This document shows, one piece after another, positions 29,185-51,904 of a stretch of 64,000 bases of DNA. The DNA comes from Acidimicrobiia bacterium. Lineage in GTDB: Bacteria > Actinomycetota > Acidimicrobiia > Acidimicrobiales > Poriferisodalaceae. The DNA is taken from positions 3,577 through 67,576 of the forward strand of contig JAJDZE010000004.1 in NCBI GenBank assembly GCA_022824805.1. Reading direction: 5' to 3'. Below the pieces are notes generated by a model. That model was not told where the DNA came from, ran no database searches, and saw only the letters and a program-made list of their open reading frames with translations. The position numbers and the translations under genes were made by a program. The first letter of the stretch is position 1; every line of letters begins with the position of its first letter.

Positions 29185-29242
29185 CGATGATCGGCCGCAC
29201 CGTTAGCTCGGTGCTGGGGTGCTACGATGTACGCTCGCGAGA

Positions 29243-30085
29243 ATGGATGGGGCGGAGATTCTTGTTGCTTCGCTGCGGCGAGCGCTGATCGCTGACAAGT
29301 ACGGCAACAACTGGCAGTATCACTCGCGTAGCGATCGTCACTCCAAGGTCGCCTGCTGGGGCATAGCGTTCGACCTGCTTCAGACATCCTCGCTGCTGCG
29401 GCACCATGTCGCCGAGGGCAAGGTTGTGATCGGCGTCAACCACACGATGAGGGACTTCGGCACCGGGCGAAAGAAGGATCTGGACTTGGTGCTGGCCCGA
29501 CCGGCAGGCCAGATCGATGAGGGTGTGACGCTCTCAGGACTGGCTCAGCACTATGACGTCGAACTCAGCGGTGATCAACGTCGCCAACTGAACGCGCTGC
29601 CCGACTGCCGGGTGGGACCCGTCGGGGCAGTACTCGTGGCGCTGGAAGCCAAGGCAACGATGACGGCCCACATCAGGGCGTTGCCGCGTTTGTATGACGA
29701 ACTGAACTCGTCGCACCTGTGCGTCCACGGCGCTAGCAAGCAGGCGCTGGCCGTGGGATTCGTGATGGTGAATGCCTCCGACGCCTTCGCTTCCTCAGAC
29801 ATGAACAAGGGTGATATCTCGCAGGGGCTCGCCTTCACGACGGAGCCTCAACCACGCTCCGTGGAGCGAGTGCTGGCGAAGGTGGCGGAGATTCCTCGGC
29901 GGTCGAACGTCAGGGACAACGGCTTCGACGGCATCGGCGTCGTCGTGGTCAATGGCAGAAACGATGGAACGCCGTACACGCTTGAGGACGGCGCGCCAGC
30001 GCCGCGGCCCGGAGAGCCGTTCCACTACGACGGCATGATCGCCCGCATGGCCAACGAGTACGACACCACCTTCGCCAGCATCTGA
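29243..30085 (+). CDS. Putative PD-(D/E)XK restriction endonuclease partner of the MTase
   Basis: I recognise no family, but KKDLDLVLARP ... VLVALEAKATM fits a D...E-x-K nuclease core. Lies immediately downstream of the C5-MTase inside the same insert. Confidence 0.45.
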   Translation: MDGAEILVASLRRALIADKYGNNWQYHSRSDRHSKVACWGIAFDLLQTSSLLRHHVAEGKVVIGVNHTMRDFGTGRKKDLDLVLARPAGQIDEGVTLSGLAQHYDVELSGDQRRQLNALPDCRVGPVGAVLVALEAKATMTAHIRALPRLYDELNSSHLCVHGASKQALAVGFVMVNASDAFASSDMNKGDISQGLAFTTEPQPRSVERVLAKVAEIPRRSNVRDNGFDGIGVVVVNGRNDGTPYTLEDGAPAPRPGEPFHYDGMIARMANEYDTTFASI

Positions 30086-39256: not shown

Positions 39257-40474
39257 TCAGTCGGCTTCGGCTGCGGTGCCCACGTTGGGTGTGAAGCCTG
39301 ACTTGGGCGTCCCCACACCCTTCAGCGCCGCAGCGGCCCGTTCGTTCTCGAAGATCTTCGCCAGGATCGCCTTGCCGGCCCGGTCGAAGTACTCCCGGTT
39401 CTCGATCACGAACTCGTTGGACTCAGCCATCGACGCGAGCTGTCCGTTGACCGCAGGCATGACGTGACGCGCCACCAGGTCCCAGCTGCGGAACATGGCC
39501 TCGGGCTCGGCCCAGTCGTTGACGAAGCCCATCATCACGCCGAACCCGCCCGTGATCTCCTGCATCCGCAGGATGTTCTCGATGAGGTCGTCGGGGGTGC
39601 CGATGACGCCGGCTGCGGAGTCGGCGTCGGCGTAGAAGTCGATGGCCTCTGCCGTCGAGGCCAGCGGCTCCAGCCCCGGTCGCTGCAGCGTGGCGACGTT
39701 GTAGTCGTTGTGCCAGCGCAGCAGCCCGTGCTCGACGTCACGCCGAGCCTGGTCGCGGGTGAGCGCCACGTGGAAGTTGAACATCACCCGCCAGTCGGCC
39801 CGGTCCACGACTCGGTCGTGCTTGGCGGCAGCCTCCTCGGCGAAGCTCCACTGCAGCGGCAGCGACGCCAGGCCCTCGGTGGACATGGAGCCGATTGAGA
39901 GCACGCCCATGCCGTGCTTGCCGGCCAGCGTCATGCCCGACGGGCTGATCATCGACGCCGTCACCATCGGGATCTTGTGCTGATAGGGCAGGATCTGCAG
40001 CTTCGCGTCGTATAGCGAGAACCAGTCGCATTCGTAGGTGAAGCGCTCGCCGCCCGCCAGCAGGCGCTGGATGACCGGGATTGCCTCGTCCTGGCGGTCG
40101 CGCAGCAACATCGGGTCGATGCCCAGCGTGTGTGCATCAGAGGGCAGCGCACCCGGCCCGGTGCCGAGGATCGCCCGCCCGAAGCTCATCTGGTCGAGCT
40201 GGACGATGCGCTGGGCGACCATGAACGGATGGTGATAAGGGATCGAGGTCACCCCGGTGCCCAGCTTGATGCGGCCGGTGCGCACCGCGGCGGCAGCCAG
40301 GAACATCTCGGGCGAGCCGATGGTCTCCCAACCTGTCGAGTGATGCTCGCCACACCAGAACTCGTCGTACCCCAGCCGGTCGAGGAGGGTGACCAGGTCG
40401 AGGTCACGCTGCAGTTGCAGCGCCGGGCTCTCCCCAGGCAGATGATGCGGTGCCAGAAACGCTGCGAACTTCAC
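39257..40474 (-). CDS. LLM class flavin-dependent monooxygenase (limonene monooxygenase-like)
   Basis: MKFAAFLAPHH...YDEFWCGEHHS...IKLGTGV. Confidence 0.8.
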   Translation of the reverse strand: MKFAAFLAPHHLPGESPALQLQRDLDLVTLLDRLGYDEFWCGEHHSTGWETIGSPEMFLAAAAVRTGRIKLGTGVTSIPYHHPFMVAQRIVQLDQMSFGRAILGTGPGALPSDAHTLGIDPMLLRDRQDEAIPVIQRLLAGGERFTYECDWFSLYDAKLQILPYQHKIPMVTASMISPSGMTLAGKHGMGVLSIGSMSTEGLASLPLQWSFAEEAAAKHDRVVDRADWRVMFNFHVALTRDQARRDVEHGLLRWHNDYNVATLQRPGLEPLASTAEAIDFYADADSAAGVIGTPDDLIENILRMQEITGGFGVMMGFVNDWAEPEAMFRSWDLVARHVMPAVNGQLASMAESNEFVIENREYFDRAGKAILAKIFENERAAAALKGVGTPKSGFTPNVGTAAEAD

Positions 40475-40858
40475 GGTGTGGACCCTACTGACGCGCTGCT
40501 GTCGCCCAATGAGCGACCGCGCGGATAGGTGGAGCAGATTTCAGCGCATTTCATGCGGAGCATCGACCTCGGCCGCGAACTTGCAGGTCAGAGGATCGGC
40601 TAGCGAGTCAACGGTCACAGCATTTCCGCGGATCAGCGCCTATCCGCTCATCCTCTATGCGACGAGTGCCAGCTGATGCTGCGACCCCCGTCGACGTCGA
40701 GGCAGACGCCGGTGAGGAAGCCGGCCGGTTACGCTCGCACTCAGAGGCCAGCCACCCCGGAGTTGGCAGAGCAACCCACTTGGGTAGCCGCCGGGGGGCT
40801 GGCCCTTTCGCGACGGTAGTCACGTTCCGCTGCGCACAGGCCTGAATTTCGATGCATT

Positions 40859-42049
40859 TCAAGGCGCTGTCAGCACGTCGTCGCCGATGAGGCTGTCGAT
40901 GGCTGTGGCGTCGTAGCCGATCTCGCTCAGTATCTGCCGGCCGTGCTCACCGATGTCCGGGGCGGGCCGCCGGACGCTGGGCGGCGTCTCGGAGAACTGC
41001 TCGGGGGGTGGGATGACCCGGTACGGGCCCGCAACCGGGTGCTCGTCGATCGGAAGATCCGACACAAGTCCGTCGAGCGTCGCCGCCTCGGTTGCGGGGA
41101 TGCCGTGTTCCTCGCACAGCTCCAGCCACTCGGCCGTGGTGCGCTGGCCCAGCACCGAGGCCACGTCGCGGTACAGGCTGTCGCTGTGGGTGACGCGCTC
41201 GATGGGTGTCGCGAAGCGCTCGTCGGCGGCGAGATCGTGCCGACCCCCGGCTTCGAACAGCGCGACGTAGTGCTCGTGGTCGTAGGGGAGGATGTTGATC
41301 CAGCCGTCCGCAGTCCGCTGGGGCTTGCGCTCGGGTGTGAGGATGCGGGCATACCCGGCGCTCGCCACCGGCGGCTCGGAGATGGCGCCCGCACCGTGCT
41401 CGGCGAGCACGAAGGCGCGCATCACATCGATCATCGGGATCTCGATGCACTGGCCTTGGCTGGTCTGTGCCCGGTGGTACAGCGCCGCGGTCACCGAGTT
41501 GGCGATCGTCAGCCCGCAGAACTTGTCGGCGACGAGGCTGGGCAGCAGCATCGGCTCGGCGCCCATGCGGCGGAACAGGTCGCCGATGCCGCTGGCGGAC
41601 TGGATGATGTCGTCGTATGCGGGTGCATCGGCCTGCTCGCTGGCAGACGGGTAGCCGTGCGCCCGGCAGAACACGATGTCGGGCCGAACCTGCTGCACGG
41701 CCTCGTAGTGCAACCCGAGGCGACGCAGCGGTCCCGGGCGCAGGTTGGTGATCATCACGTCGCACGTGGCGACGATGTCGAGAAATGCCTGGCGGCCCCG
41801 CTCGTGCTTGAGATCCAACGAGATGCTGCGCTTGTTGCGCAGCAGGTTGAGCGAGACGCCCGAGAACCCGTCCACCGGGCCTGAGCCCATGCTCCGATTC
41901 CGGTCGCCAGCGGCCGATTCGACCAAGATGACGTCAGCGCCGAAGTCGCCGAGCGTCCGTGTCGCCGCGGGCCCCATGAGCACCGACGACAGGTCCAGCA
42001 CCCGGACGCCCGCCAGCGGCCCCGCCGCTCCCTCGCTCTCGCTCATCAC
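40859..42049 (-). CDS. CaiB/BaiF family (class III) CoA-transferase
   Basis: PLAGVRVLDLSSVLMGPAATRTLGDFGADVILVE is the typical N-terminus. Confidence 0.85.
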   Translation of the reverse strand: MMSESEGAAGPLAGVRVLDLSSVLMGPAATRTLGDFGADVILVESAAGDRNRSMGSGPVDGFSGVSLNLLRNKRSISLDLKHERGRQAFLDIVATCDVMITNLRPGPLRRLGLHYEAVQQVRPDIVFCRAHGYPSASEQADAPAYDDIIQSASGIGDLFRRMGAEPMLLPSLVADKFCGLTIANSVTAALYHRAQTSQGQCIEIPMIDVMRAFVLAEHGAGAISEPPVASAGYARILTPERKPQRTADGWINILPYDHEHYVALFEAGGRHDLAADERFATPIERVTHSDSLYRDVASVLGQRTTAEWLELCEEHGIPATEAATLDGLVSDLPIDEHPVAGPYRVIPPPEQFSETPPSVRRPAPDIGEHGRQILSEIGYDATAIDSLIGDDVLTAP

Positions 42050-42121
42050 ACTCCCGTTACGTTGCGAAGCAAGCCCGCAGGCCTATCAGATGTTCTTGCT
42101 GCTCCGAGCCCGGTCGAGCCT

Positions 42122-42781
42122 TCAGGCACTTGGCGTCAATCCCCACAGCGCGACGCTGACGCTCTCTTGCAACTGGAGCACCATGTCGTCGTAGTCGAGC
42201 CGATCGGTGACGAGACGCCGCATGAGCACCTGCCACTGCGCGTAGAGGTTGTGGGCAAGCATCATCTTGGGAACGTCGGCGTCGAGCTTGCCGCTTGCGC
42301 TCGCGGCACTGAGCACCGATGAAAGCCCGCTCAGAAACCAGTCGGTGAACTCTTCGACGCCGGCGCGTCCAGAGTCGCTGGCGAAAGGAAGCTCCTTGAA
42401 GAACGAGCGAGCGAGGCGGCGATCTGCCCTGTGGTGGTCGGTGACATGCATCAGCAACGTCATGATCTGGCTGACAGCGTCGGTCGAGGGGTCGACGAGG
42501 TCGAAGGCCTCCCGCCACGCATCGCCCGCCACGTTCACGAATGCGCTGACTAGCAGGTCCTCCTTGGACTCCACGTAGAGGTAGAGCGTCCCGGCACCGA
42601 TCCCCGCAGCCGAGGCGATCTCAGCCGTGGTGGTGTCGTCGAAGCCTTTCTCCTGGAACAGCGCCGTGGCAGCAGCCACGATGCGCCTCCGCTTGTCGAG
42701 CTTGTTCCGCTCGCGCTTGCCCAACTCGGTCTCATCGAAAGCGGCGTCGCCGCGCAGGAGCGTGGGGTAGGCAACTGACAT
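42122..42781 (-). CDS. TetR family transcriptional regulator
   Basis: RRRIVAAATALFQEKGFDDTTTAEIASAAGIGAGTLYLYVESKEDL is the HTH signature. Confidence 0.85.
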   Translation of the reverse strand: MSVAYPTLLRGDAAFDETELGKRERNKLDKRRRIVAAATALFQEKGFDDTTTAEIASAAGIGAGTLYLYVESKEDLLVSAFVNVAGDAWREAFDLVDPSTDAVSQIMTLLMHVTDHHRADRRLARSFFKELPFASDSGRAGVEEFTDWFLSGLSSVLSAASASGKLDADVPKMMLAHNLYAQWQVLMRRLVTDRLDYDDMVLQLQESVSVALWGLTPSA

Positions 42782-43003
42782 CGCCGAACAACGCTAGCCG
42801 CAGCAAAATGGGCGCCTCTCCGGCGGGAATCCAAGGACTCGAGCGGGCAGGCGGCGAGGCGTCGGCAGGAGGCCCGCATTTGCACCTCGCTTGCCTGGTG
42901 ATGTCCAGCTACCCGAGCGGCTCCTCAGTCGGTGCGTTCTCACCGCAGCGAGCGGTTCGGCGGTCGTTTGACGGCGCGGGGTGTTCTCGGTAGACCATCG
43001 CCT

Positions 43004-43843
43004 ATGGGGATTGACATCGAACCGACCGGCGCTGCGCTCGGAGCGTTCGTGTCGGGTCTGGAATTGGGCAAGCTCGACGCGGAGCAATCCGCCACGGTGA
43101 TCGAGGCGCTCGGCGAGCACGGGGTGCTGTTCTTCCGCGACCAAGATGTGTCGCCCGAAGGGCACATCGCATTCGCTGAGTCGTTCGGGGAGATCGACGT
43201 CAACGCGTACTTCGCGCCGAACGGGACCTATCCCCAGATCGCCGAGGTGCGCACCCGACCGGAGAACACCTACGTGATCGGGGAGGCGTGGCACACCGAT
43301 CATTCCTACGAGGAAGCTCCTGCGCTCGGCTCGATCCTCGTCGCCCGGGAGCTGCCGTCACACGGCGGCGACACCGCCTTCAGCTCGATGTACGCCGCCT
43401 ACGACGCGTTGTCCGACGGCATGAAGGAGACGCTGCGGGGCCTGCGAGCGGTGCATTCGTCGTACGAGGCGTTCGGCGTGGGGTTGTCGAAGCTGCCAGA
43501 GGCCGAGCGGGCTGATCGATTCACAGACGAATTCCCCTTCGGGCCCGACATCGTGCATCCGGTGGTGATCTCCCACCCGGTGAGCGGCCGCCCGGTGCTG
43601 TACGTCAATCGCTCGTTCACGACCCGCATCGACGGGTGGACGGCGGCCGAGAGCCGACCCCTGCTCGAGTTCCTGTTCGAGCACGGTTCGAGCGTGGAAT
43701 TCACCTACCGCTTCGGTTGGGAGCCCGGCTCGGTCGCCATGTGGGACAACCGCTGCACCTGGCACAAGGCGCTCAACGACTACCGCGGGCAGACCCGCCT
43801 GATGCACCGCATCACGGTGAAAGGCTGCCCGATCGCAGCCTGA
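43004..43843 (+). CDS. TauD/TfdA family Fe(II)/2-oxoglutarate dioxygenase
   Basis: ATG at 43004. WHTDHSYEEAP (HxD), GGDTAFSSM and WDNRCTWHKA are typical of TauD. Confidence 0.85.
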   Translation: MGIDIEPTGAALGAFVSGLELGKLDAEQSATVIEALGEHGVLFFRDQDVSPEGHIAFAESFGEIDVNAYFAPNGTYPQIAEVRTRPENTYVIGEAWHTDHSYEEAPALGSILVARELPSHGGDTAFSSMYAAYDALSDGMKETLRGLRAVHSSYEAFGVGLSKLPEAERADRFTDEFPFGPDIVHPVVISHPVSGRPVLYVNRSFTTRIDGWTAAESRPLLEFLFEHGSSVEFTYRFGWEPGSVAMWDNRCTWHKALNDYRGQTRLMHRITVKGCPIAA

Positions 43844-43916
43844 TGTTGCGGCGACAGTTGGCGTTCGTCGCCGGCCGGGCTTTATCACATGAGCCACCAT
43901 CGCGAGAGCGTGCCTG
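43782..43916 (+). repeat. Direct repeat copy 1 (last 62 nt of tauD plus 73 nt downstream)
   Basis: 43782-43845 is identical over 64 nt to 46160-46223. The next approx. 70 nt are a diverged match ending in the shared block ccaccatcgcgagagcgtgcctg. Confidence 0.9.
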
Positions 43917-43917
43917 G

Positions 43918-43967
43918 CTAGCCCTGATTGGGGCCTGTCGAATCTGACAGAACTCAATCAGGGCTAG
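43918..43967 (+). other. 13-bp perfect inverted repeat CTAGCCCTGATTG-N24-CAATCAGGGCTAG at the left island junction
   Basis: Read directly. It starts exactly where repeat copy 1 ends. No T-tract follows, so it could be a terminator for tauD or a recombination-site remnant. Confidence 0.45.
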
Positions 43968-44124
43968 GCGCCGCGACCTGCCACGGCAGCACTCCCGTGC
44001 TAGCGCCTCGCTTGGGGCGGGCCGCTCATGCTGCTCGGGACGCGCCCGCTCGCCCGCGCGGCCCTACACTTGAACACCTCCGACCGACCCCGTAGCACAG
44101 CCATCGAATCCTTGAGGTGCACTC

Positions 44125-45552
44125 ATGTTCACGTCAATGAGACTCCGGGATTTCAAATCTTGGTCGAATACCGGACGAATCCGCCTTGCCCCCATCACTG
44201 GCTTCTTCGGTGCCAACAGCTCCGGAAAGTCAAGTCTTCTCCAATCGCTGGTCTTGATGAAGCAAACAGCTCAATCGAGCGACCAGAAGACGCTCTTGAA
44301 CATTTCCGGTCATGACAGCATCATTGATTTTGGCAACTATGGGCACATAGGGCATCAGGACAGCTTCAGTTTTCTCCTCATGGAGTTCCAGTGGCAGCAG
44401 GCTCACTATGCGGACGTGCTGGACCCAAGCCTCCTTGGCGCGATATATGACTCCGAGTCCAGCACTGAGGTTGCCGTCAGCAAAGAGCCGGCCCAGGAAC
44501 TCCGGTTCCGACTCGGGGTCCTGCTTCAAAAGGGGTGGCCTGAACTCTCCGATCTGGCCCAGATCGAATATGAGACAGGATCAGCAAAAGTCAGCTATTT
44601 GCCATCGGACCTTCAGTTATCAAATTGGAGCCGGGGTCATCGGCTCCAGATTGAAGCAAAGTCCTCTGGCTCGGACGCACCGCATATCTACCATGCTCTC
44701 GCCGAACTGCCTCGGCCTGCGAAGTGCTATGGCTTTCCGAACACTGCCGACATCGATGCGGACACGAAAGGCCTGCTCAGGCTGCTGGAAGTCAGCTTTG
44801 AGCAGCAGTTTCTCGACAAGCTTTTCTACCTTGGCCCGCTGCGTCAGAGCGCTTCGCGGACCTATCTCTGGAGGCAGTCAGCCCCGGCCGATGTTGGCAC
44901 TGACGGGTCGAATGCAATTCAAGCGCTGCTCGCTGCGCGGGATCGCGGCAAGACCAACACACGAAAACTTGCTGCAGACCGAACACCTGCCGAACCGATC
45001 ACCATTGAAGAACATGTCTCGCAATGGCTGCAGGAACTCGGGCTTGCCTCGGTATTCGAGACTCGAAGGCTGAGCGACGAGGATTATTTCTATGAGGTGA
45101 TCCTGCGAGCTGCTCCAGGCGCTCGCCAGATTCCGCTTGTTGACGTGGGCTTCGGTCTCTCTCAGGTGCTCCCCGTGCTCGTGCTTTTGGCCTACGTACC
45201 GGAACATACGACTGTGCTGCTTGAACAACCTGAGATGCATCTCCATCCTGCGGCTCAAGCGGGACTCGCTGACATCTTGATCGAAGTCGCCAAGGTGCGG
45301 AAGCTGCAAATAATCGTCGAGAGCCATAGCGAACACCTGCTGGCGCGTCTCCAGCGACGGATGGCGGAAGAAAGGATCGACGGCGACGATGTGGCGCTGT
45401 ACTTCTGCGAGCACGATGGGTACAAGTCCGAGATCACCTCGCTCGAACTCAACGAGTTCGGGGAAATCCGGAACTGGCCGAAACACTTCTTCGGAGATGC
45501 GATGGGCGAAGCGGTGGCCATGATCGAAGCGCGGGCGCGCCGCGAAGACTGA
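44125..45552 (+). CDS. ABC/AAA_15-21-type ATPase with DUF3696-like C-terminus
   Basis: Walker A GANSSGKSS (K35), YLGPLRQSASRTY motif, signature-like GFGLSQVLPVL, Walker B VLLEQPEMHLHP, H-loop ESHSEHLL, C-terminal EIRNWPKHFFGD. RBS GAGGTG lies upstream of the ATG. Confidence 0.8.
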   Translation: MFTSMRLRDFKSWSNTGRIRLAPITGFFGANSSGKSSLLQSLVLMKQTAQSSDQKTLLNISGHDSIIDFGNYGHIGHQDSFSFLLMEFQWQQAHYADVLDPSLLGAIYDSESSTEVAVSKEPAQELRFRLGVLLQKGWPELSDLAQIEYETGSAKVSYLPSDLQLSNWSRGHRLQIEAKSSGSDAPHIYHALAELPRPAKCYGFPNTADIDADTKGLLRLLEVSFEQQFLDKLFYLGPLRQSASRTYLWRQSAPADVGTDGSNAIQALLAARDRGKTNTRKLAADRTPAEPITIEEHVSQWLQELGLASVFETRRLSDEDYFYEVILRAAPGARQIPLVDVGFGLSQVLPVLVLLAYVPEHTTVLLEQPEMHLHPAAQAGLADILIEVAKVRKLQIIVESHSEHLLARLQRRMAEERIDGDDVALYFCEHDGYKSEITSLELNEFGEIRNWPKHFFGDAMGEAVAMIEARARRED

Positions 45553-45581
45553 TCTACTGATCGCCTACAGCACCACTGGGC

Positions 45582-46067
45582 ATGGATCTCCAAGTCATCG
45601 ACACGAATGTGCTGGTTGCCGCCAACGGCACCGAGACGCACGCTGACCAGGCGTGCACGCTGGCTTGTGCACGACGGTTGCAGGAGACTCAGGACAACGC
45701 CGTTCTCGTCCTGGACGCGCAGCGGAACATCATGAGGGAATACCAGCGAAGAATCGGATCCGAAAGTCGCAACACAGCAGCCAAGAGGTTCTTCGTGTGG
45801 GCATCAAGGACCGCTCCGGGACTCGACGTGCAGCTCACACCCCATGCGAACCGGGTGTTCGAGGAATTCCCACCGAGCGATCGTCTTCGAGACTTCGACG
45901 AAGATGATCGGATGTTCGTTGCGGCGGCTGCTGTTGCTTCACAGTCCCGCCCGACAGTTCTTGCCAACGCGCTCGATAATGACTACGCCGAACACCGAGC
46001 AGCTCTTCAAGAGGCAGGCATCCCGGTTGAAGAACTCTGTCCGCATCACCTACGGGTCGAGTCATAG
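45582..46067 (+). CDS. PIN-like nuclease domain protein
   Basis: MDLQVIDTNVLVAANG (first acidic residue D7), EY, DFDEDDRMFVAAA and NALDND give a PIN-like acidic-residue arrangement. Starts 29 nt after the ATPase stop. Confidence 0.6.
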   Translation: MDLQVIDTNVLVAANGTETHADQACTLACARRLQETQDNAVLVLDAQRNIMREYQRRIGSESRNTAAKRFFVWASRTAPGLDVQLTPHANRVFEEFPPSDRLRDFDEDDRMFVAAAAVASQSRPTVLANALDNDYAEHRAALQEAGIPVEELCPHHLRVES

Positions 46068-46159
46068 CTGCGCCGCCACACGGCGTCTGCCACATCGCGG
46101 CCACCGCTGCGTTGTGCGATGTCGCTTGTGTCGTGTAGCCGAGGCTGTCAGATGCCAGC

Positions 46160-46293
46160 ACCGCGGGCAGACCCGCCTGATGCACCGCATCACGGTGAAA
46201 GGCTGCCCGATCGCAGCCTGATGCTGGAGCGACGGCCGGTCCTCGTCGTCGGCCGGGCGCTTCGCATACGCCACCATCGCGAGAGCGTGCCTG
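46160..46293 (+). repeat. Direct repeat copy 2 (orphan tauD 3' stub plus ancestral tauD-arylsulfatase spacer)
   Basis: Encodes ...RGQTRLMHRITVKGCPIAA* without a gene body. It runs straight into the arylsulfatase start at 46307. Confidence 0.9.
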
Positions 46294-46306
46294 CTAGACG
46301 AAGGCG

Positions 46307-48568
46307 ATGCGCGACCGCGAACGCCCTGGAACCACCGCCGCAGAGCTGAAGCCGCACTGGGACCCGAGCCCCGCGCCGCCCCACGGCGCGCCCAACGTCG
46401 TAGTGATCGTGCTCGACGACACGGGATTTGCGCACCTCGGCTGCTACGGCAGCGACATCGACACGCCCAACATCGATCGGCTCGCCGCGGGCGGGCTCCG
46501 TTACACCAACTTCCACACGACAGCATTGTGCTCGCCGACACGGGCCTGCCTGCTCAGCGGCCGCAACCATCACTCGGTGGGCATGCGGTTCCTGTCGAAT
46601 GTCGACACGGGTTTCTCGAACTGCCGCGGCGTGATCGCGCCGTCGGCGGCCACCTTCGCCGAAGTGCTCTCCAGTTACGGCTACGCGAACTTCGCCCTGG
46701 GCAAATGGCACCTCGCCAACCTCGCGGACTGCGGCCCGGCGGGCCCGTTCGATCATTGGCCGCTAGGCCGCGGCTTCGACCGCTTCTACGGCTTCCTGGG
46801 CGGGGCAACCGACCAGTTCTCGCCCGAGCTCGTCATCGACAACCACCCGGTGGCCCCTCCGAGCACGCCCGGCTATCACCTGTCCGAGGACCTTGTCGAG
46901 CAGGCGATCGCCATGATCGCTGCACAGCAGGCCACAGCGCCGTCGCGCAGATTCCTGACCTACTTCGCATTCGGTGCCACGCACTCGCCACATCAAGCTC
47001 CGCAGGACTACTTGGACAAGTACCGGGGCCGCTACGACGACGGCTGGGACGTGGCGCGGGCGCGTTGGTTCGAACGCCAGCGGGAGCTGGGCGTGGTGCC
47101 GGCCGACGCCGAGCTGTCGCCGCGGAACCCCGGGGTGCAGGCATGGGACGAGCTCGACGACGACCAGCGGTTGCTCTATTGCCGTATGCAGGAGACCTTC
47201 GCCGCATTCTTGGACCACACCGACGATCAGATCGGCCGGCTCGTCGACTACCTGGAGCGCACCGGCCTGCTGGACGACACCCTCATCGTGCTGCTGTCCG
47301 ACAACGGCGCCTCGCAGGAGGGCGGCCGACACGGCCTAACCAACGAGAACATCTTCTTCAATCGCCAGCGGCTCAGCGTCGCCGACATGGTGCCGTTCGT
47401 GGACCAGATCGGCGGCCCCAACCTCTACAACAACTACCCGTGGGGCTGGGCGCAGGCCGGCAACACGCCGCTTCGCTTCTACAAGCAGAACACCTACGAG
47501 GGCGGCATCCGAGACCCGCTGATCGTGCACTGGCCGGCCGGCATCGACGACGCCGGGGGGATCCGCGACCAGTACCACCATGTCATCGACGTGATGCCGA
47601 CGATCCTCGAGGTGGTCGGGGTCGAAGCACCCCAAGTGCACAACGGCGTGCCGCAGCAGCCCGTCGAAGGCATCTCGATGCTCCCCACGTTCGCAGCAGG
47701 AAGCGCAGATGCCCCGTCGTCTCGCACCACGCAGTACTACGAGATGCTCGGCCACCGGGCCGTATACCACGATGGCTGGAAAGCGGTGACGTTGCACCGC
47801 CAGGGGACGCCGTTCGGCGAGGACGAATGGGCGCTGTATGACACCCGCAGCGATTTTGCTGAGATCCATGACGTGTCTGAGACCCACCCGGACAAGCTGC
47901 GCGAGCTGATCGAGCTGTGGTGGGACGAGGCCGACACCTACAACGTGCTGCCGCTCGACGATCGGGGGGTCGAACTGTTCGTACTGCGTCAGCCCGGTCC
48001 CGAGTCCTCAGCGGGACTGCTGCGCTACCCGGCCGGCATGCCACACCTGGAGCGCTTCAAATGCCCCGATGTGCGGAACCGCTCCTTCGAGATCGCAGTT
48101 TCGGCCGATACCTCGACAGGAACCGACGGTGTGCTGGTGGCCTACGGGTCACGCACCGGCGGGCTCGTGCTGTGGGTCGCCGACGGGAGGCTGTGCTTCG
48201 AATACAACTACCTCGGCCGTCCGACCGGGATGCGGGCCAGCGCGCCGGTGCCGCTCGGCGACGTCGAGTTGGGCGTGCGTTACGCGAAGACGGCCGAGCA
48301 TGCCGGCACGGCCACACTGTGGCAGCGCGCCGGCGACGGGCCCGAGCAGGAACTCGCAACGGCCGACCTCGTGACCATGCCATACCGCCAATCGCTGTAC
48401 GGGATGGACGTGGGGCGCGACCTCGGCCCCACCGTGAGTGCCGCCTACACCGGACCGAACGAGTTCCACGGACTGTTGCGGTACGTGGAGTTCCGCTTGG
48501 AGAACGACCGCGACGACCTGCGCGCAGCAGCAGCCGTCGAAGCCGAGAACGCGCTGGTCGACCAGTAG
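46307..48568 (+). CDS. Arylsulfatase (Cys-type, formylglycine-dependent)
   Basis: VVVIVLDDTGFAHLGCYGS...TALCSPTRACLLSGRNHH (CxPxR), DNGAS. 753 aa with a C-terminal extension. Confidence 0.85.
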   Translation: MRDRERPGTTAAELKPHWDPSPAPPHGAPNVVVIVLDDTGFAHLGCYGSDIDTPNIDRLAAGGLRYTNFHTTALCSPTRACLLSGRNHHSVGMRFLSNVDTGFSNCRGVIAPSAATFAEVLSSYGYANFALGKWHLANLADCGPAGPFDHWPLGRGFDRFYGFLGGATDQFSPELVIDNHPVAPPSTPGYHLSEDLVEQAIAMIAAQQATAPSRRFLTYFAFGATHSPHQAPQDYLDKYRGRYDDGWDVARARWFERQRELGVVPADAELSPRNPGVQAWDELDDDQRLLYCRMQETFAAFLDHTDDQIGRLVDYLERTGLLDDTLIVLLSDNGASQEGGRHGLTNENIFFNRQRLSVADMVPFVDQIGGPNLYNNYPWGWAQAGNTPLRFYKQNTYEGGIRDPLIVHWPAGIDDAGGIRDQYHHVIDVMPTILEVVGVEAPQVHNGVPQQPVEGISMLPTFAAGSADAPSSRTTQYYEMLGHRAVYHDGWKAVTLHRQGTPFGEDEWALYDTRSDFAEIHDVSETHPDKLRELIELWWDEADTYNVLPLDDRGVELFVLRQPGPESSAGLLRYPAGMPHLERFKCPDVRNRSFEIAVSADTSTGTDGVLVAYGSRTGGLVLWVADGRLCFEYNYLGRPTGMRASAPVPLGDVELGVRYAKTAEHAGTATLWQRAGDGPEQELATADLVTMPYRQSLYGMDVGRDLGPTVSAAYTGPNEFHGLLRYVEFRLENDRDDLRAAAAVEAENALVDQ

Positions 48569-48574
48569 GCCCCC

Positions 48575-48607
48575 TCAGGGCTCGATCAGACGTGCCGCGG
48601 GTGACCG
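48575..48607 (-). pseudogene. Stub resembling the 3' end of the alkylsulfatase gene
   Basis: tcagggctcgatcagacgtgccgcgggtgacc versus 50006-50036 tcagggctcgatcaaacgtgccgtggtgaac (about 28/32). On the minus strand it reads ...AARLIEP* versus TTARLIEP* of the intact gene. Confidence 0.55.
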
Positions 48608-48694
48608 GCTGCAGGCTCGTGTTGCCGCCCGTGCTGGGCGTCGTGTTATGGCGCGGCAGCCGCATCAGGCGTTGCCTCGGATACAGTTCGGGAT

Positions 48695-49315
48695 ATGCGT
48701 AATCTCCGTATTGCGTCCATTGCGGGTCCATTCGACGATGTCGGACTGGCGACGCGTGCTGCTGCGGCATTGAGCCGTGCCGACGCAATGGGCCTGCTGA
48801 GCGGGGCGATCACCTGCCTGGACTACTCCGCGCTTGAAGAGCTTCGGTCGGGCATGGCTGACGCCGGTATCGGTCGTGTATTCGTCACCGAGCTCGATCA
48901 ACTTGGCGCTCGTGAGCCGGAGCGGCTTTCGGCACTGGTGGCGAAGATCATCGAGGCCTTGGAGCAGTCGCCTGCGCCAGCCCACGAATGGCCCGCTGTG
49001 GCACAGATGCTCGGGCTCGACCTGCTGGTTCGGCTCCTCGGCATCTCGCTGTCGAGCGCTCGGCGGTACCTCTCGGGCGAGCGGGCGACACCCGACGCGG
49101 TGGCCGCTCGCTTGCACTTCTTGGCTCTCGTTGCGGGCGACTTGGCGGGTGCGTACAACGACATCGGTGTCCGGCGATGGTTCGACCGACCACGGTCACG
49201 GCTGGGTGGTGCCGCCCCCGCCGAAGAGCTCGGTCAGGACTGGTCGCCCGACGACCCCGCAGCGCAAGGGGTTCGCGAACTCGCCGCTGCACTGGTCTCG
49301 TCACCGGCGACATGA
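48695..49315 (+). CDS. Xre-like antitoxin with DUF2384 (MbcA/ParS-type) C-terminal domain
   Basis: C-terminal GVRRWFDRPRSRLGGAAPAEEL matches the DUF2384 pattern (W...P...LgG..P..ll). ATGA overlap with the RES gene. Confidence 0.7.
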   Translation: MRNLRIASIAGPFDDVGLATRAAAALSRADAMGLLSGAITCLDYSALEELRSGMADAGIGRVFVTELDQLGAREPERLSALVAKIIEALEQSPAPAHEWPAVAQMLGLDLLVRLLGISLSSARRYLSGERATPDAVAARLHFLALVAGDLAGAYNDIGVRRWFDRPRSRLGGAAPAEELGQDWSPDDPAAQGVRELAAALVSSPAT

Positions 49316-49830
49316 TCGCCTTCCGTCACACTGATCCGCGCTTTCCTTTTCTTTGGGAGGGCGTGTTGCAGCCCGCGGCCCGTTGGAACGACGACGGTGA
49401 CCTCACTCACTACTTCTGCGACACGCCCGACGGCGCGTGGGCCGAGTTACTGCGTCACGAAGAGATCAGTGACCCGGCCGATGTCGAAACGATCCGACGT
49501 GCGCTGTGGGCGGTCGAGATCGGAGAACCTCCGTCGCTTCGGCCCGATCTGCCACAGGCGACGATGACCGGCGATCCGTCGACCTGGCCGGAGTGCAGAG
49601 AGTTCGCGCGTTCGCGCCGAGACGAGGCCGCCGGCCTCACCGCGCCGTCAGCGGCGTTGAAACCAGGTGGAGCTCGGGGCTGGCGGGTCGACAACGGCCT
49701 GCAGTCCGGACCCGAACGGGACGGAGGCGTCTTCGTCCTCTTCGGTCCCCGGCCGGATCTTGTGGGATGGGCTGCGACCGCCGAGGGTTGCCCCGACCAG
49801 ACGTTGCTGGACAGCGTGGCCCATTTCTGA
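49312..49830 (+). CDS. RES domain toxin (NAD+-targeting family)
   Basis: ATG at 49312: MIAFRHTDPRFPFLWEGVLQPAARWNDDG..YFCDTPDGAWAELLRHE...LTAPSAAL has the R...E...S arrangement of RES domains. Confidence 0.75.
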   Translation: MIAFRHTDPRFPFLWEGVLQPAARWNDDGDLTHYFCDTPDGAWAELLRHEEISDPADVETIRRALWAVEIGEPPSLRPDLPQATMTGDPSTWPECREFARSRRDEAAGLTAPSAALKPGGARGWRVDNGLQSGPERDGGVFVLFGPRPDLVGWAATAEGCPDQTLLDSVAHF

Positions 49831-50005
49831 AGCACCGCCACGATGTGGCGCTTCGTATTTTGCCGGGGTGAAGAGGATCGGGGGTCCGCAGGTCACCCCC
49901 AAGATCTCCGACCGTCTTCGCACGGCACCTGCCGTTTGACCGCTGCTGCCGCATTCTGATCATCAGGACCTGCGTCCTCCGACGTGACCGGTCGCCATCT
50001 CGCCG

Positions 50006-51904
50006 TCAGGGCTCGATCAAACGTGCCGTGGTGAACGCAGTGAGGCCGGCCAGCAGCGACTGCAGCAGGGCCCGATCGCCGGTGATCTCGGCACCGTCGA
50101 GCGCGCTGGCGTCGTTGAGTGCAGCGAAGAGGGTGGCACGGTCGGTCCGGACCGAGGCGACGGCAGCAGGATCGACCGCATTGGCCCGGTGGTGCACAGC
50201 GGAACGGCCGACACCGAGTACGTGATCCTCACCGAGGTCGGTGAACCGGAAGTTGAACGTAATCGGCCCCGCATCGAAGACGTCGGGATCGAACCGAACG
50301 CCGATCACGTCGAACAGGTGCTCAGCGCTCATGGCCTGGGACATGTCGCGGGTGGGCACGCGGCCCCAGTCGGGCGTGCCTTCACGCAGTTCCTTGGCGC
50401 CCATCAGGTAGGCGTTGCGCCACGTCGCCGACTCCGACTGGTAGCCGAGCTGTTCGAGCGCGTCGGCCTGCAGGCTGCGAGCTTCGCGGTTCGCCGGGTC
50501 GGCAAAGACCACGTGGTTGACCACTTGGGCCACCCAGCGGTACTCGCCCCGCTCGTAGCACGCGCGGGCTCTGGCCAGCACGGCACTTGCGCCGCCCATG
50601 AACTCGACGTAGTTGGCGCCCGCCTCAGCCGGCGGCAGCGGATTGAGATTGGCCGGGTTGCCGTCGTACCAGCCGAGGTAGCGGTTGTACACCGAGCGGC
50701 AGTTGTGCGACACCGTGCCGTAGTAGCCCTGCACATGCGACTCGCTGAACTCAGCCGGCAGCCGCAGCCGGGCGGCGATCTCGGTCGGTCGCAGTCCTTG
50801 GTTGGCCAGGCGCATCGTCTGGTCGTGCATCCAGCGGTACAGGTCGCGCTGCATCGACAGGAAGCCCCGCACGTCGGCGTTGCCGAACCGGGGCCAGTGG
50901 TGGCTGGCGAACATGACGTCGGTGTCGTCGCCCCACATTTCGAGCGCCTCGCCGATGTACTTGCTCCACGCCAGCGCGTCGCGGGTCTGCGCACCCCGGA
51001 TCGGGTAGAGGTTGTGCATCGTGTGCGTGCAGTTCTCGGCCATGCACAGCAGGTTCTTGTCTGGGAAGAAGAAGTTCATCTCCGCGGGCGCTTCGGCGTC
51101 GGGCGTGTTCTGGAACACGATCCGGATGCCGCTGAGCTCGCGCTCCTCCCCGGTGCGGGTGATGACGTCGGTGGGCGCCAGCAGATCCGATCGGGCCAGA
51201 CACATCGCCGAGCCCAAGCCGCAGTCGACGTGGCCCAGCGGCCCCGGAGGCAGCAGCGGCCCGAACTGGTACGCGGCCCGCCTGCCCATGATCGGGCCGG
51301 CAATGACGAACTCGCTGACCACCTCTTCGAGGAATCCGTCAGGCGCCACGATCTCCACCTCGCCGCGGGCCACCGACTCGGCGTCGGTCACGCCGAGCAC
51401 GCCGCCGAAATGGTCTGCGTGCGAATGCGTGTAGATGATTGCCCGCACCGGCCGCTCGCCCAGCGTGCGATTGGCCAGGTCCAGCGCTGCCGCCGCCGAG
51501 GGCCGGGTGGTGAGGGGATCGATGATCAGCCAACCGTCGGCGCCCGCCAGGAACGTGATGTTGGCAATGTCGTAACCACGCACCTGCCAGACACCGTCGG
51601 CCACCTCGAACAGTCCGTGATGGACGTTGAGCCGTGCCTGCCGCCACAGGCTCGGATGCACCGACGGGGGCGCCTCGGCTGATTCGTCGACGAAGGCGTG
51701 CCGGGCCACGTCGAACACGACGTGGTTGCCCATCGTGACGCGACCGTCGTCAATCTGGGCGATGAGTCCACGAGAAGCTCGTTCAAAATCTCCCGGGTCG
51801 TCGAATCGAATCACCGCGCCGGCTCGGGACGCCGCTTCATTCGCCGCAACGGTGAACTGCGTCGGGGGCTTCGACGCTTCGGGCCCGGCGTTGTCGGTGG
51901 TCAT
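50006..51904 (-). CDS. MBL-fold alkyl/aryl-sulfatase (SdsA1/Bds1-like) with C-terminal SCP2-like domain
   Basis: Start MTTDNAGPEA at 51904. IIYTHSHADHFGG metallo-beta-lactamase motif and the dimerisation/SCP2-like tail typical of alkyl sulfatases. Confidence 0.85.
   Translation of the reverse strand: MTTDNAGPEASKPPTQFTVAANEAASRAGAVIRFDDPGDFERASRGLIAQIDDGRVTMGNHVVFDVARHAFVDESAEAPPSVHPSLWRQARLNVHHGLFEVADGVWQVRGYDIANITFLAGADGWLIIDPLTTRPSAAAALDLANRTLGERPVRAIIYTHSHADHFGGVLGVTDAESVARGEVEIVAPDGFLEEVVSEFVIAGPIMGRRAAYQFGPLLPPGPLGHVDCGLGSAMCLARSDLLAPTDVITRTGEERELSGIRIVFQNTPDAEAPAEMNFFFPDKNLLCMAENCTHTMHNLYPIRGAQTRDALAWSKYIGEALEMWGDDTDVMFASHHWPRFGNADVRGFLSMQRDLYRWMHDQTMRLANQGLRPTEIAARLRLPAEFSESHVQGYYGTVSHNCRSVYNRYLGWYDGNPANLNPLPPAEAGANYVEFMGGASAVLARARACYERGEYRWVAQVVNHVVFADPANREARSLQADALEQLGYQSESATWRNAYLMGAKELREGTPDWGRVPTRDMSQAMSAEHLFDVIGVRFDPDVFDAGPITFNFRFTDLGEDHVLGVGRSAVHHRANAVDPAAVASVRTDRATLFAALNDASALDGAEITGDRALLQSLLAGLTAFTTARLIEP

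What the first reader, a model, noticed from the sequence alone, without database searches (positions are those of the whole stretch)
44125..46067. ABC-like ATPase (DUF3696-type) plus PIN-like nuclease gene pair in a low-GC island: candidate undescribed two-gene defence/abortive-infection system
Two co-oriented genes separated by 29 nt are the only cargo of a compositionally foreign 2.2-kb insert.

- Gene 1 (475 aa) has a complete ABC/AAA_15-21-type catalytic set: Walker A GANSSGKSS, YLGPLR motif, signature-like GFGLSQVLP, Walker B LLEQPEMHLHP, H-loop ESHSEHLL. It also has a large insertion between Walker A and the signature, and a DUF3696-like tail (NWPKHFFGD).
- Gene 2 (161 aa) has a PIN-like acidic constellation: IDTNV, DEDD, NALDND.

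A sensor-ATPase plus small-nuclease architecture parallels Septu (PtuA/PtuB-HNH), Gabija, PARIS (AriA/AriB-TOPRIM) and OLD-type systems. I do not recognise an ATPase+PIN pairing of this kind as a named system. The location in a cassette-like hotspot next to R-M and TA cassettes supports an immunity role.
Basis: partly seen in the sequence, partly recalled or inferred. Interest (0 to 1): 0.82.

Follow-up and report, generated by a model that had tools for sequence, protein, structure and literature searches.

The report
Known HEC-03 ATPase–PIN defence cassette
The two genes are a real, recently inserted anti-phage gene pair, but it belongs to an already named and lab-tested system (HEC-03), so only the way it was inserted (a 135-bp copy of the target on each side, no mobility gene) is still unusual.

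Summary
Window 44125-45552 encodes a 475-aa ABC ATPase with a DUF3696 tail. Window 45582-46067 encodes a 161-aa PIN-like protein. The genes are 29 nt apart, in the only low-GC patch of the 64-kb window.

The novelty claim fails. Both proteins match PADLOC's HEC-03 models end to end (E=1e-114 and 5e-26). They are collinear with the experimentally tested Pseudomonas cichorii HEC-03 (35% and 32% identity). That system reduces phage plaquing, needs both genes, and is toxic when induced (Payne et al., bioRxiv 2024). ATPase-then-PIN adjacency held in 80 of 80 surveyed genomes. It is therefore a new member of a known kind whose mechanism is still undescribed.

The likely mechanism is inferred, not shown: an ATP-binding sensor/clamp holds a VapC-like PIN nuclease through its DUF3696 tail and releases it on infection.

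Three results go beyond the finding.
- The host is a Candidatus Poriferisodalis sponge symbiont.
- Five related genomes show the empty site, so the insertion is exactly 2,378 bp: the cassette plus a duplicated 135-bp target, with no recombinase.
- Similar long flanking repeats bracket HEC-03 in 13 of 72 other genomes, against 4 of 279 controls. This matches the 'insertion with long target duplication' described for restriction-modification genes.

The parts
43782..43916 (+). Left copy of the 135-bp duplicated target: the last 62 nt of the TauD-like gene (stop codon at 43841-43843) plus 73 nt of intergenic DNA
   Evidence: Direct repeat with 46160-46293 at a spacing of 2378. The segment is single copy in the empty-site relatives L165, L166, L168, L169 and L170. 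The first 64 nt are identical between the two copies; the tail is 54/71 identical.
43918..43967 (+). Strong hairpin at the left edge of the inserted DNA; a possible insulator or terminator (inferred)
   Evidence: Found as inverted repeat I2. RNA fold gives -42 kcal/mol with z = -6.7. It is unique in the window and is not shared with the related cassettes L001-L003.
43968..44124 (+). 5' non-coding region of the cassette, with a presumed promoter and a GAGG ribosome-binding site 6 nt before the ATG
   Evidence: Nucleotide homology to the cassettes in L001-L003 begins in this region, at island positions 52-208. No sigma-70 consensus was found here.
44125..45552 (+). HEC-03 ABC ATPase, 475 aa, with a DUF3696 C-terminal tail
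   Evidence: PADLOC PDLC04148 at 1.1e-114 over residues 1-473. Pfam AAA_21, AAA_15 and DUF3696. 35% identity (E=2e-77) to the tested P. cichorii ATPase. The AF2 model has pTM 0.83, and its best PDB matches are Rad50, PtuA, SMC head and GajA.
45582..46067 (+). HEC-03 PIN-like effector, 161 aa
   Evidence: PADLOC PDLC04147 at 5.2e-26 over residues 4-156. 32% identity (E=7e-23) to the tested P. cichorii PIN protein. The AF2 model has pLDDT 92.3, and its top PDB matches are VapC (7vwo), the SMG6 PIN domain, HARP/PRORP and AF1683. 26 of 54 homologues give sub-threshold PIN_3 hits.
46068..46159 (+). 3' non-coding end of the cassette
   Evidence: The first ~58 nt are conserved with L001-L003. The sharp breakpoint with the right repeat copy lies at 46159/46160.
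46160..46293 (+). Right copy of the duplicated target: a non-functional fragment of the TauD 3' end plus the native intergenic DNA that leads into the sulfatase ATG at 46307
   Evidence: The Logan unitig L083 equals window 43816-46189, so it breaks inside the identical 64-nt core.

Best explanation
The pair is a member of the HEC-03 anti-phage defence family, an ABC ATPase with a DUF3696 tail followed by a stand-alone PIN-like nuclease. It is carried on a ~2.2-kb low-GC cassette that entered the chromosome of a Candidatus Poriferisodalis sponge symbiont between a TauD-like dioxygenase gene and an arylsulfatase gene.

Shown here:
- family membership;
- strict ATPase-then-PIN linkage;
- the PIN fold with a conserved acidic constellation;
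- the precise insertion with a 135-bp target duplication and no mobility gene.

Shown by others for a homologue sharing 32-35% identity: protection against phages, a requirement for both genes, and toxicity on induction.

Inferred mechanism. The ATPase oligomerises through its ABC head. The Walker B motif is invariantly E-Q where canonical ABC ATPases have D-E, which suggests an ATP-binding switch with slow hydrolysis. Paired C-terminal DUF3696 tails hold the PIN protein inactive. The variable insert between Walker A and the signature motif senses a phage cue. A nucleotide-dependent conformational change then frees or activates the PIN domain. The PIN domain cleaves RNA (most likely tRNA or rRNA, as VapC does) and halts translation, so the infection aborts.

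The cassette itself most likely moves by recombinase-free 'insertion with long target duplication', the mode described for restriction-modification genes.
For: Membership:
- Full-length PADLOC HEC-03 hits of 382 and 89.6 bits.
- BLASTP to the tested P. cichorii proteins gives 2e-77 and 7e-23, collinear, with the same gene order.
- Published phenotype: reduced plaquing of at least two phages, both genes required, toxic with IPTG.

Linkage:
- 80 of 80 PIN-anchored loci from GTDB species have the ATPase immediately upstream on the same strand.
- 2 of 2 ATPase-anchored loci have the PIN gene.

Effector:
- The AF2 model has pLDDT 92.3, and its top PDB matches are all PIN nucleases.
- D7, D45, E53, D106, D109 and D132 are conserved.
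- 26 of 54 homologues give weak PIN_3 hits.

ATPase:
- All motifs are invariant, including E367-Q368.
- The fold matches Rad50, PtuA, SMC and GajA.

Tail-to-PIN docking:
- The NsnB model hits gene 1 at 1.8e-59.
- The Menshen study predicts that two DUF3696 tails clamp a PIN-like domain.

Insertion:
- Empty sites are found in five relatives.
- A 135-bp repeat flanks the insert.
- There are no conserved ends or terminal inverted repeats.
- 13 of 72 other HEC-03 loci have flanking repeats against 4 of 279 controls, Fisher p=5e-7.
- The event fits the criteria of Furuta et al. 2010.
Against: - No experiment exists on this protein pair or on any actinobacterial homologue. Identity to the tested system is only 32-35%.
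- The PIN assignment rests on modest scores: Foldseek E=0.02 with TM ~0.5, and Pfam PIN_3 below threshold.
- Sequence searches against the PDB find no PIN protein.
- The substrate (RNA or DNA), the trigger, the stoichiometry and the role of ATP are all unknown. As of September 2026 HEC-03 was still cited as having an undescribed mechanism.
- The E-Q Walker B could also mean an unusual catalytic arrangement rather than slow hydrolysis.
- The tested homologue has Glu, not Asp, at the position of D7.
- The mechanism that produces the long target duplication is not known even for R-M systems.
Confidence: 0.85

Rival explanations
1. It is a selfish toxin-antitoxin-like addiction module. The PIN protein is a VapC-type toxin, the ATPase is its type IV-like antitoxin or regulator, and the pair stabilises itself after insertion rather than defending this host against phages.
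For: - The PIN fold is closest to the VapC toxin.
- Pfam describes AAA_21 as 'putative AbiEii toxin, Type IV TA system'.
- HEC-03 is toxic when induced in E. coli.
- The cassette behaves as a mobile unit with no recombinase and sits among metabolic genes.
- A genuine RES toxin module was inserted nearby in the same manner.
Against: - The tested homologue gives phage-specific protection that needs both genes.
- The family is repeatedly embedded in Hma and type I R-M operons.
- Addiction and abortive-infection defence are not mutually exclusive.
Confidence: 0.08
2. It is a reduced Menshen (NsnABC) system: an NsnB-like ATPase plus a truncated NsnC that has lost its C-terminal effector and its NsnA sensor.
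For: - Gene 1 hits the NsnB model at 1.8e-59 and has the same ABC + DUF3696 architecture.
- NsnC begins with a PIN-like domain that is predicted to dock onto DUF3696.
Against: - HEC-03 models score far higher than the NsnB model (382 against 200 bits). Gene 2 has no NsnC hit.
- There is no ParB/DUF262 gene in or beside the insert.
- The stand-alone 160-aa PIN protein keeps its acidic residues, unlike the inactive PIN domains of NsnC.
- The PIN protein is a conserved partner in 80 of 80 loci, so it is not a decay product.
Confidence: 0.03
3. The PIN-like protein is a DNA nuclease (FEN/ExoIX-like) or a non-catalytic adaptor. Defence would then work by DNA cleavage, or through the ATPase itself, rather than by RNA cleavage.
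For: - The PIN-like superfamily includes 5' DNA nucleases, and E. coli ExoIX appears among the weaker fold matches (ranks 28 and 42).
- Related ABC-ATPase systems use DNA nucleases (Gabija, OLD).
- Menshen PIN-like domains are adaptors.
Against: - The best structural matches are RNases: VapC, SMG6 and HARP/PRORP.
- The invariant acidic residues argue against a purely adaptor role.
- The closest mechanistic analogues with small separate effectors cleave tRNA: PARIS AriB and retron-Septu PtuAB (abstracts listed).
Confidence: 0.12
4. It is a genuinely undescribed defence system.
For: - Pfam and NCBIfam give no family name to gene 2, and only generic AAA/DUF3696 names to gene 1.
- There is no solved structure.
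Against: - Both genes hit PADLOC-DB HEC-03 models.
- The system is described in a preprint with experiments.
- The name is used in routine surveys in 2026.
Confidence: 0.02

Closest known systems
HEC-03 (Hma-embedded candidate 03; Payne et al., bioRxiv 10.1101/2024.01.29.577857; PADLOC-DB v2 models PDLC04147 and PDLC04148)
   Same: - Two co-oriented genes: a ~460-aa ABC ATPase with a DUF3696 tail, then a ~160-aa PIN protein.
- Full-length HMM matches.
- Collinear alignment to the tested P. cichorii ATCC 10857 pair.
- The same invariant motifs.
   Different: - Only 32-35% identity to the tested pair.
- An actinobacterial host (Ca. Poriferisodalis).
- Not embedded in an Hma system: it sits alone between metabolic genes.
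- D rather than E at the first PIN acidic position.
- The A and B labels in PADLOC-DB are the reverse of those in the preprint.
Menshen (NsnA-NsnB-NsnC)
   Same: - The ATPase is of the NsnB type: an ABC head with the Q-loop replaced by Arg, a GxG signature, a non-canonical Walker B and a DUF3696 tail.
- The partner begins with a PIN-like fold, which is predicted to be clamped by two DUF3696 tails.
   Different: - No NsnA ParB/DUF262 sensor.
- The partner is a stand-alone PIN protein that keeps its acidic residues, not an inactive PIN domain fused to a separate toxin domain.
PARIS (AriA-AriB) and Septu / retron-Septu (PtuA-PtuB)
   Same: - An ABC ATPase oligomer is paired with a small separate nuclease, held inactive and released on a phage cue.
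- The effectors cleave tRNA.
- PtuA is among the best structural matches to gene 1.
   Different: - The effector is PIN-like, not Toprim (AriB) or HNH (PtuB).
- Sequence similarity to AriA is limited to the C-terminal ATPase motifs (5e-22 over residues 326-405).
- The C-terminal docking element is different (DUF3696).
VapBC toxin-antitoxin modules
   Same: The effector has a VapC-like PIN fold with a conserved acidic cluster, and it is toxic on over-expression (reported for the tested HEC-03 homologue).
   Different: There is no VapB-type DNA-binding antitoxin. The partner is a 475-aa ABC ATPase encoded upstream.
R-M gene complexes inserted with long target duplication (Nobusato et al. 2000; Furuta, Abe and Kobayashi 2010, PMC2853133)
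   Same: - A small defence cassette with no mobility genes.
- Flanked by a direct repeat longer than 30 bp that is single copy in related genomes.
- The repeat overlaps the 3' end of the upstream gene.
- The insert has lower GC than the host.
   Different: The cargo is an ATPase-PIN abortive-infection-type system, not a restriction-modification system. The two repeat copies are mosaic: 64 nt identical, then 76% identity.

Membership tests
HEC-03 | ABC ATPase matching the HEC-03 ATPase profile over its full length, with a DUF3696 tail | tested here: met
   PDLC04148 at 1.1e-114 and 382 bits, protein residues 1-473 on profile positions 1-451 of 458. DUF3696 at 1.7e-12.
HEC-03 | Small PIN-domain partner matching the HEC-03 PIN profile | tested here: met
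   PDLC04147 at 5.2e-26, residues 4-156 on profile positions 3-154 of 159. PIN fold in the AF2 model.
HEC-03 | The two genes are adjacent and co-oriented, ATPase first | tested here: met
   29-nt gap. The tested P. cichorii locus has the same order. 80 of 80 surveyed loci agree, as do 2 of 2 reverse-anchored loci.
HEC-03 | Homology to the experimentally validated proteins (WP_025259138.1 and WP_025259137.1) | tested here: met
   BLASTP gives 35% identity (E=2e-77) and 32% identity (E=7e-23), both collinear.
HEC-03 | Anti-phage activity that requires both genes | not testable with these tools
   Shown only for the P. cichorii homologue in E. coli.
HEC-03 | Embedded inside an Hma (helicase-methylase-ATPase) system. 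This is how the family was discovered; it is not a strict requirement. | tested here: not met
   The flanks are a TauD-like gene and an arylsulfatase gene. Other members do sit in Hma or type I R-M operons: L004, L028, L046, L072 and L018.
Menshen (NsnABC) | NsnA sensor with ParB/DUF262 and ParBDB domains encoded in the operon | tested here: not met
   The 2.4-kb insert has only two genes, and its neighbours are metabolic.
Menshen (NsnABC) | NsnB-type ABC ATPase with a DUF3696 tail | tested here: met
   The NsnB model hits at 1.8e-59, weaker than the HEC-03 model. DUF3696 is present.
Menshen (NsnABC) | NsnC: an inactive PIN-like N-terminal domain fused to a C-terminal toxin domain | tested here: not met
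   Gene 2 is 161 aa, a single domain with conserved acidic residues, and has no NsnC hit.
PARIS | AriB Toprim (DUF4435) effector next to the AriA ATPase | tested here: not met
   Gene 2 is PIN-like. The AriA hit is partial, covering only residues 326-405.
Septu | PtuB HNH nuclease next to the PtuA ATPase | tested here: not met
   No HNH domain is present. PtuA matches only at the level of fold.
VapBC type II toxin-antitoxin | Small VapB antitoxin gene directly upstream of the PIN toxin gene | tested here: not met
   The upstream gene is the 475-aa ABC ATPase.
Insertion with long target duplication (criteria of Furuta et al. 2010) | Insert under 20 kb with no mobility genes, a direct target repeat over 30 bp, and that repeat single copy in a related genome lacking the insert | tested here: met
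   The gain is 2,378 bp, with two genes and a 135-bp repeat. The segment is single copy in L165, L166, L168, L169 and L170. The criteria themselves are quoted.

The most novel reading that the evidence does not exclude
HEC-03 pairs are autonomous mini-cassettes that spread without any recombinase by 'insertion with long target duplication', a mode so far documented for restriction-modification genes. On this reading, the same process is how small defence systems become embedded inside Hma and type I R-M operons and dropped into housekeeping loci. The flanking repeats would then allow excision as circles and re-entry at homologous sites. A bolder version holds that the cassette's own nuclease or ATPase promotes the event.
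Probability: 0.3. Interest if true: 0.6.

Novelty: new member of a known kind. Interest (0 to 1): 0.3.

Why it matters
As a defence system this adds little. It is a distant actinobacterial member of HEC-03, which PADLOC already annotates.

Three things are useful.

1. HEC-03 has a demonstrated phenotype but no described mechanism. Several family-wide features seen here give concrete, testable hypotheses for how an ABC ATPase controls a VapC-like nuclease:
   - an invariant E-Q Walker B;
   - a DUF3696 tail shared with Menshen NsnB;
   - a stand-alone PIN protein that keeps its acidic residues;
   - a conserved Cys triad.

2. The window, together with five empty-site relatives, is a very clean natural example of a defence cassette inserted with a 135-bp target duplication and no mobility gene. 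The same signature recurs around HEC-03 in about 18% of the genomes surveyed, including inside Hma systems. The HEC-03 preprint leaves open how embedding of defence genes arises, and this suggests one route.

3. The case shows that sponge-symbiont Acidimicrobiia exchange such cassettes within the genus.

Tried and rejected
- An exact look-up of the TauD-like protein found nothing, and a look-up of P0243 found nothing.
- A metagenome scan with the sulfatase returned only relatives at or below 69% identity with no conserved synteny, so it gave no empty site. The empty sites came instead from members of the sulfatase's 90% cluster.
- Sequence searches of the PIN protein and its profile against PDB chains gave only chance hits.
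- NCBIfam has no model for gene 2, and gives only far-below-cutoff hits for gene 1.
- A sigma-70 promoter and intrinsic-terminator scan found nothing upstream of gene 1.
- A search for conserved motifs or terminal inverted repeats at the cassette ends of 12 repeat-flanked loci found none. I therefore rejected an integron attC-like or transposon-like reading.
- The flanking repeats differ between genomes, apart from the orthologous loci L016 and L045 and a 35-nt similarity between L046 and L072. I therefore rejected element-borne terminal repeats.
- No extra repeat copies that would indicate stacked cassette arrays were found, except for dispersed repeats in L049.
- A viral-contig scan gave one weak hit, so there is no evidence that phages carry HEC-03.
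- The ABC ATPase classification paper PMC7544218 is not held, and one literature query was malformed.
- I could not model the ATPase-PIN complex, because no multimer tool is available. I could not measure distances in the PIN model, because its coordinates are not exposed.
Full report
**1. Observation**

GC falls to 0.54-0.60 across 44.0-46.0 kb, against 0.62-0.70 in every other kilobase of the window. Third-position GC is 0.63-0.65 for the two genes, against 0.81-0.90 for the surrounding genes.

Pfam finds AAA_21 (2e-22), AAA_15 (6e-21) and DUF3696 (1.7e-12, residues 418-463) in gene 1. In gene 2 it finds only a sub-threshold PIN_3 match (E=0.058). In an alignment of 120 homologues the following are invariant or nearly so:
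- Walker A, GxNSSGK[ST]S (K35)
- YLGPxR
- DVGFGxSQxLP
- LEQPExHLHP
- ESHSEH
- NWPxxFFGD

**2. Identity**

Against PADLOC-DB, gene 1 matches model PDLC04148 ('HEC-03B') at 1.1e-114 over residues 1-473. Gene 2 matches PDLC04147 ('HEC-03A') at 5.2e-26 over residues 4-156. The next-best ATPase hits are NsnB (1.8e-59), PDC-M55A (3.9e-52) and AriA (5e-22, C-terminal motifs only).

HEC-03 is one of nine 'Hma-embedded candidates' in Payne et al. (bioRxiv 10.1101/2024.01.29.577857). The preprint describes it as an ABC ATPase associated with a PIN-domain protein. It was cloned with its native promoter into E. coli. It reduced plaquing of at least two phages by orders of magnitude, both genes were required, and it was too toxic to induce with IPTG.

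The tested locus is Pseudomonas cichorii ATCC 10857, WP_025259138.1 (ATPase) followed by WP_025259137.1 (PIN). The window proteins align collinearly with them: 35% identity (E=2e-77) for the ATPase and 32% identity (E=7e-23) for the PIN protein. The preprint calls the ATPase 'A' and the PIN protein 'B', while the PADLOC HMM labels are the other way round. The name was in routine use in 2026 surveys, one of which states that the mechanism is undescribed.

**3. Linkage**

A single-sequence search found only 14 PIN homologues. A profile search found at least 2,446, none with a Pfam annotation. The ATPase family has more than 7,600 members at E<1e-10.

A scan of one genome per GTDB species with the PIN alignment confirmed 568 loci. 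In all 80 loci fetched, the DUF3696 ATPase lies immediately upstream on the same strand. It is frameshifted in five loci. Two loci anchored on distant ATPase homologues also carry the PIN gene directly downstream. The pair is therefore an obligate two-gene unit, found across Actinomycetota, Chloroflexota, Cyanobacteriota, Pseudomonadota, Bacteroidota, Planctomycetota, Latescibacterota and other phyla.

**4. The proteins**

The PIN model is confident (pLDDT 92.3, pTM 0.89). Its best PDB matches are all PIN nucleases: M. tuberculosis VapC 7vwo_A (probability 0.96, TM 0.49/0.53), the SMG6/EST1A PIN domains, HARP and PRORP RNase P, and AF1683. The scores are modest, with a best E-value of 0.02.

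Across 54 homologues, D7, D45 and D132 are invariant, and E53, D106 and D109 are conserved in at least 90%. They sit where PIN catalytic acids are expected: after strand 1, after strand 2 and in the following helix, at the start of helix 107-119, and after strand 125-129. Twenty-six of the 54 members give weak PIN_3 hits, and no other family recurs. C25 and C153 are also invariant, and C29 nearly so.

The ATPase model (pLDDT 76.8, pTM 0.83) matches Rad50, PtuA (Septu and retron-Septu), SMC heads and GajA at E=1e-9 to 1e-11. No close relative has a solved structure.

A notable family-wide feature is the Walker B motif. It reads h-h-h-L-E-Q-P-E, with E367 and Q368 invariant, where canonical ABC ATPases have D-E. 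In other ABC ATPases, Q at the catalytic-base position traps the ATP-bound state. This last point rests on established knowledge and was not tested here.

The Menshen study reports the same ABC + DUF3696 architecture for NsnB, with the Q-loop replaced by Arg, a GxG signature and a non-canonical Walker B. It also reports AlphaFold3 models in which two DUF3696 tails clamp the PIN-like N-terminal domain of NsnC.

**5. Mechanism (inferred)**

By analogy with PARIS, Septu and the Menshen models, I propose the following sequence:
- An ATPase oligomer holds the PIN protein inactive through paired DUF3696 tails.
- The variable insert between Walker A and the signature motif senses infection. This insert covers residues ~50-230 and is partly low-confidence in the model.
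- A nucleotide-dependent conformational change then releases or activates the PIN nuclease.
- The nuclease most likely cuts tRNA or rRNA, as VapC does, and translation stops.

The toxicity of induced HEC-03 fits an abortive-infection effector. None of these steps has been shown for any HEC-03.

**6. Host and insertion**

The window is from a metagenome (SAMN22237346, run SRR16351687). An ENA scaffold is 99.97% identical over 40307-51832, and a Logan unitig equals 43816-46189 exactly. The flanking sulfatase and TetR proteins fall in 90%-identity clusters with Candidatus Poriferisodalis and Acidimicrobiaceae proteins. The closest HEC-03 relatives (74-79% identity) are also in Acidimicrobiia and Ca. 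Poriferisodalis, but at other loci.

Five related assemblies have TauD followed by the sulfatase after 82-94 nt, with no HEC-03. They are L165, L166/L167, L168, L169 and L170/L171, and their genes are 83-91% identical to the window's.

Relative to them, the window has gained 2,378 bp. The gain consists of the cassette (43917-46159) plus a second copy of a 135-bp target segment, namely the last 62 nt of TauD and 73 nt of spacer. The two copies lie at 43782-43916 and 46160-46293. They are 64/64 identical in the coding part but only 54/71 identical in the tail. Both are equally distant from the relatives. This mosaic points to recombination or gene conversion within the repeat.

The insert carries no integrase or transposase. 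A strong hairpin (43918-43967, -42 kcal/mol, z = -6.7) marks its left edge.

**7. A recurrent signature**

Direct repeats of 36-263 bp (81-99% identity) bracket the pair in 13 of 72 testable loci, including the window. Shifted control windows gave 4 of 279, and those four came from only two loci (Fisher p=5e-7, or p=0.005 when counted per locus).

The repeats differ between genomes, apart from the orthologous loci L016 and L045 and a 35-nt similarity between L046 and L072, so they derive from the target rather than from the element. The upstream copy often ends at or near the stop codon of the upstream gene. The cassette ends share no motif and no inverted repeats, and in some loci only 15-20 nt of non-coding DNA accompanies the genes.

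The contexts are of two kinds:
- Defence operons: Hma components (DUF1156 methylase, SNF2/NOV_C helicase, HEPN-DUF499 ATPase) and type I HsdR.
- Ordinary genes: an ABC transporter, a GGDEF-EAL protein, DUF4432, and a solute-binding protein with an alcohol dehydrogenase.

The signature meets the published criteria for 'insertion with long target duplication', described for R-M systems of all types by Furuta, Abe and Kobayashi (PMC2853133). The HEC-03 preprint does not discuss repeats and leaves open how embedding arises.

In the same window, the RES/Xre toxin module (48695-49830) is a second strain-specific insertion. It is flanked by a 23-26-bp duplication of the 3' end of the convergent alkyl-sulfatase gene.

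**8. Context claim**

The neighbourhood is organosulfur and oxidative metabolism: TauD, an arylsulfatase, an alkyl sulfatase, a luciferase-like monooxygenase, P450s, TetR regulators and a CoA-transferase. The only R-M-like gene is a C5 methylase at 27931-29184, 15 kb away. With the site empty in five relatives, 'hotspot' is not supported.

**9. Verdict**

The feature is real, the functional reading is essentially right, and the novelty claim is refuted. This is a new and divergent member of the known, validated HEC-03 system. The remaining interest lies in the undescribed mechanism of HEC-03 and in the recombinase-free, long-target-duplication mode of insertion. That mode is documented here with empty sites, and it recurs across phyla.

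Noticed in passing
window 48575-50031: The RES/Xre-type toxin-antitoxin pair (48695-49315 and 49312-49830) is a second strain-specific insertion of 1,437 bp. It is absent from all five empty-site relatives. It is flanked by a 23-26-bp direct repeat (48575-48600 and 50006-50031) that is single copy in the relatives and is the 3' end of the convergent alkyl-sulfatase gene. Its GC (0.667) is like the host's.
   Followed up: partly
loci L004, L016, L018, L028, L033, L045, L057, L072, L043, L046, L049, L065 (flanks of the ATPase-PIN pair): Long direct repeats of target sequence (36-263 bp, 81-99% identical) bracket the HEC-03 pair in 13 of 72 testable loci (window included), against 4 of 279 shifted controls. 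They occur both inside Hma or type I R-M operons and between housekeeping genes. The cassette ends carry no conserved motif.
   Followed up: partly
window 45223-45228 (codons E367-Q368 of gene 1) and 119 homologues: The Walker B motif is invariantly L-E-Q-P-E, with Glu and Gln where canonical ABC ATPases have Asp and Glu. This is a natural equivalent of the hydrolysis-deficient 'E-to-Q' mutation, and it suggests an ATP-binding switch.
   Followed up: partly
window 45654-45668 and 46038-46040 (C25, C29 and C153 of gene 2): The PIN partner has invariant C25 and C153 and nearly invariant C29 (CxxxC ... LCP). This may be a metal site or a disulfide tying the C-terminus to helix 2. The preprint passages I read do not mention it.
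   Followed up: no
window 43918-43967: A hairpin with near-perfect 22-nt arms (-42 kcal/mol, z = -6.7) lies at the very left edge of the inserted DNA. It is unique in the window and absent from the related cassettes L001-L003.
   Followed up: partly
PADLOC-DB v2.0.0 models PDLC04147 and PDLC04148: The protein labels are swapped relative to the preprint. The HMM named HEC-03B is the ATPase and HEC-03A is the PIN protein, whereas the paper calls the ATPase HEC-03A.
   Followed up: yes
window 27931-30085: A C5 cytosine DNA methylase (27931-29184) is followed by a 288-aa ORF with no Pfam match (29219-30085).
   Followed up: partly
loci L008, L022, L023, L052, L059: The HEC-03 ATPase gene is split by frameshifts or truncated while the PIN gene stays intact. 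These are possible pseudogenised systems, or sequencing errors in the MAGs.
   Followed up: no
window and loci L001-L080: The pair has lower GC than its flanks in nearly every genome, by 0.03-0.18. This holds even in Ca. Poriferisodalis relatives whose cassettes are 21-28% diverged, so low GC looks like a persistent property of the cassette rather than a sign of recent arrival alone.
   Followed up: no
locus L081 (ENA scaffold_1926), 5276-5761: The gene list for the ENA assembly of the same sample includes the ATPase but not the 161-aa PIN gene. Automated annotation there may therefore have missed the pair.
   Followed up: no
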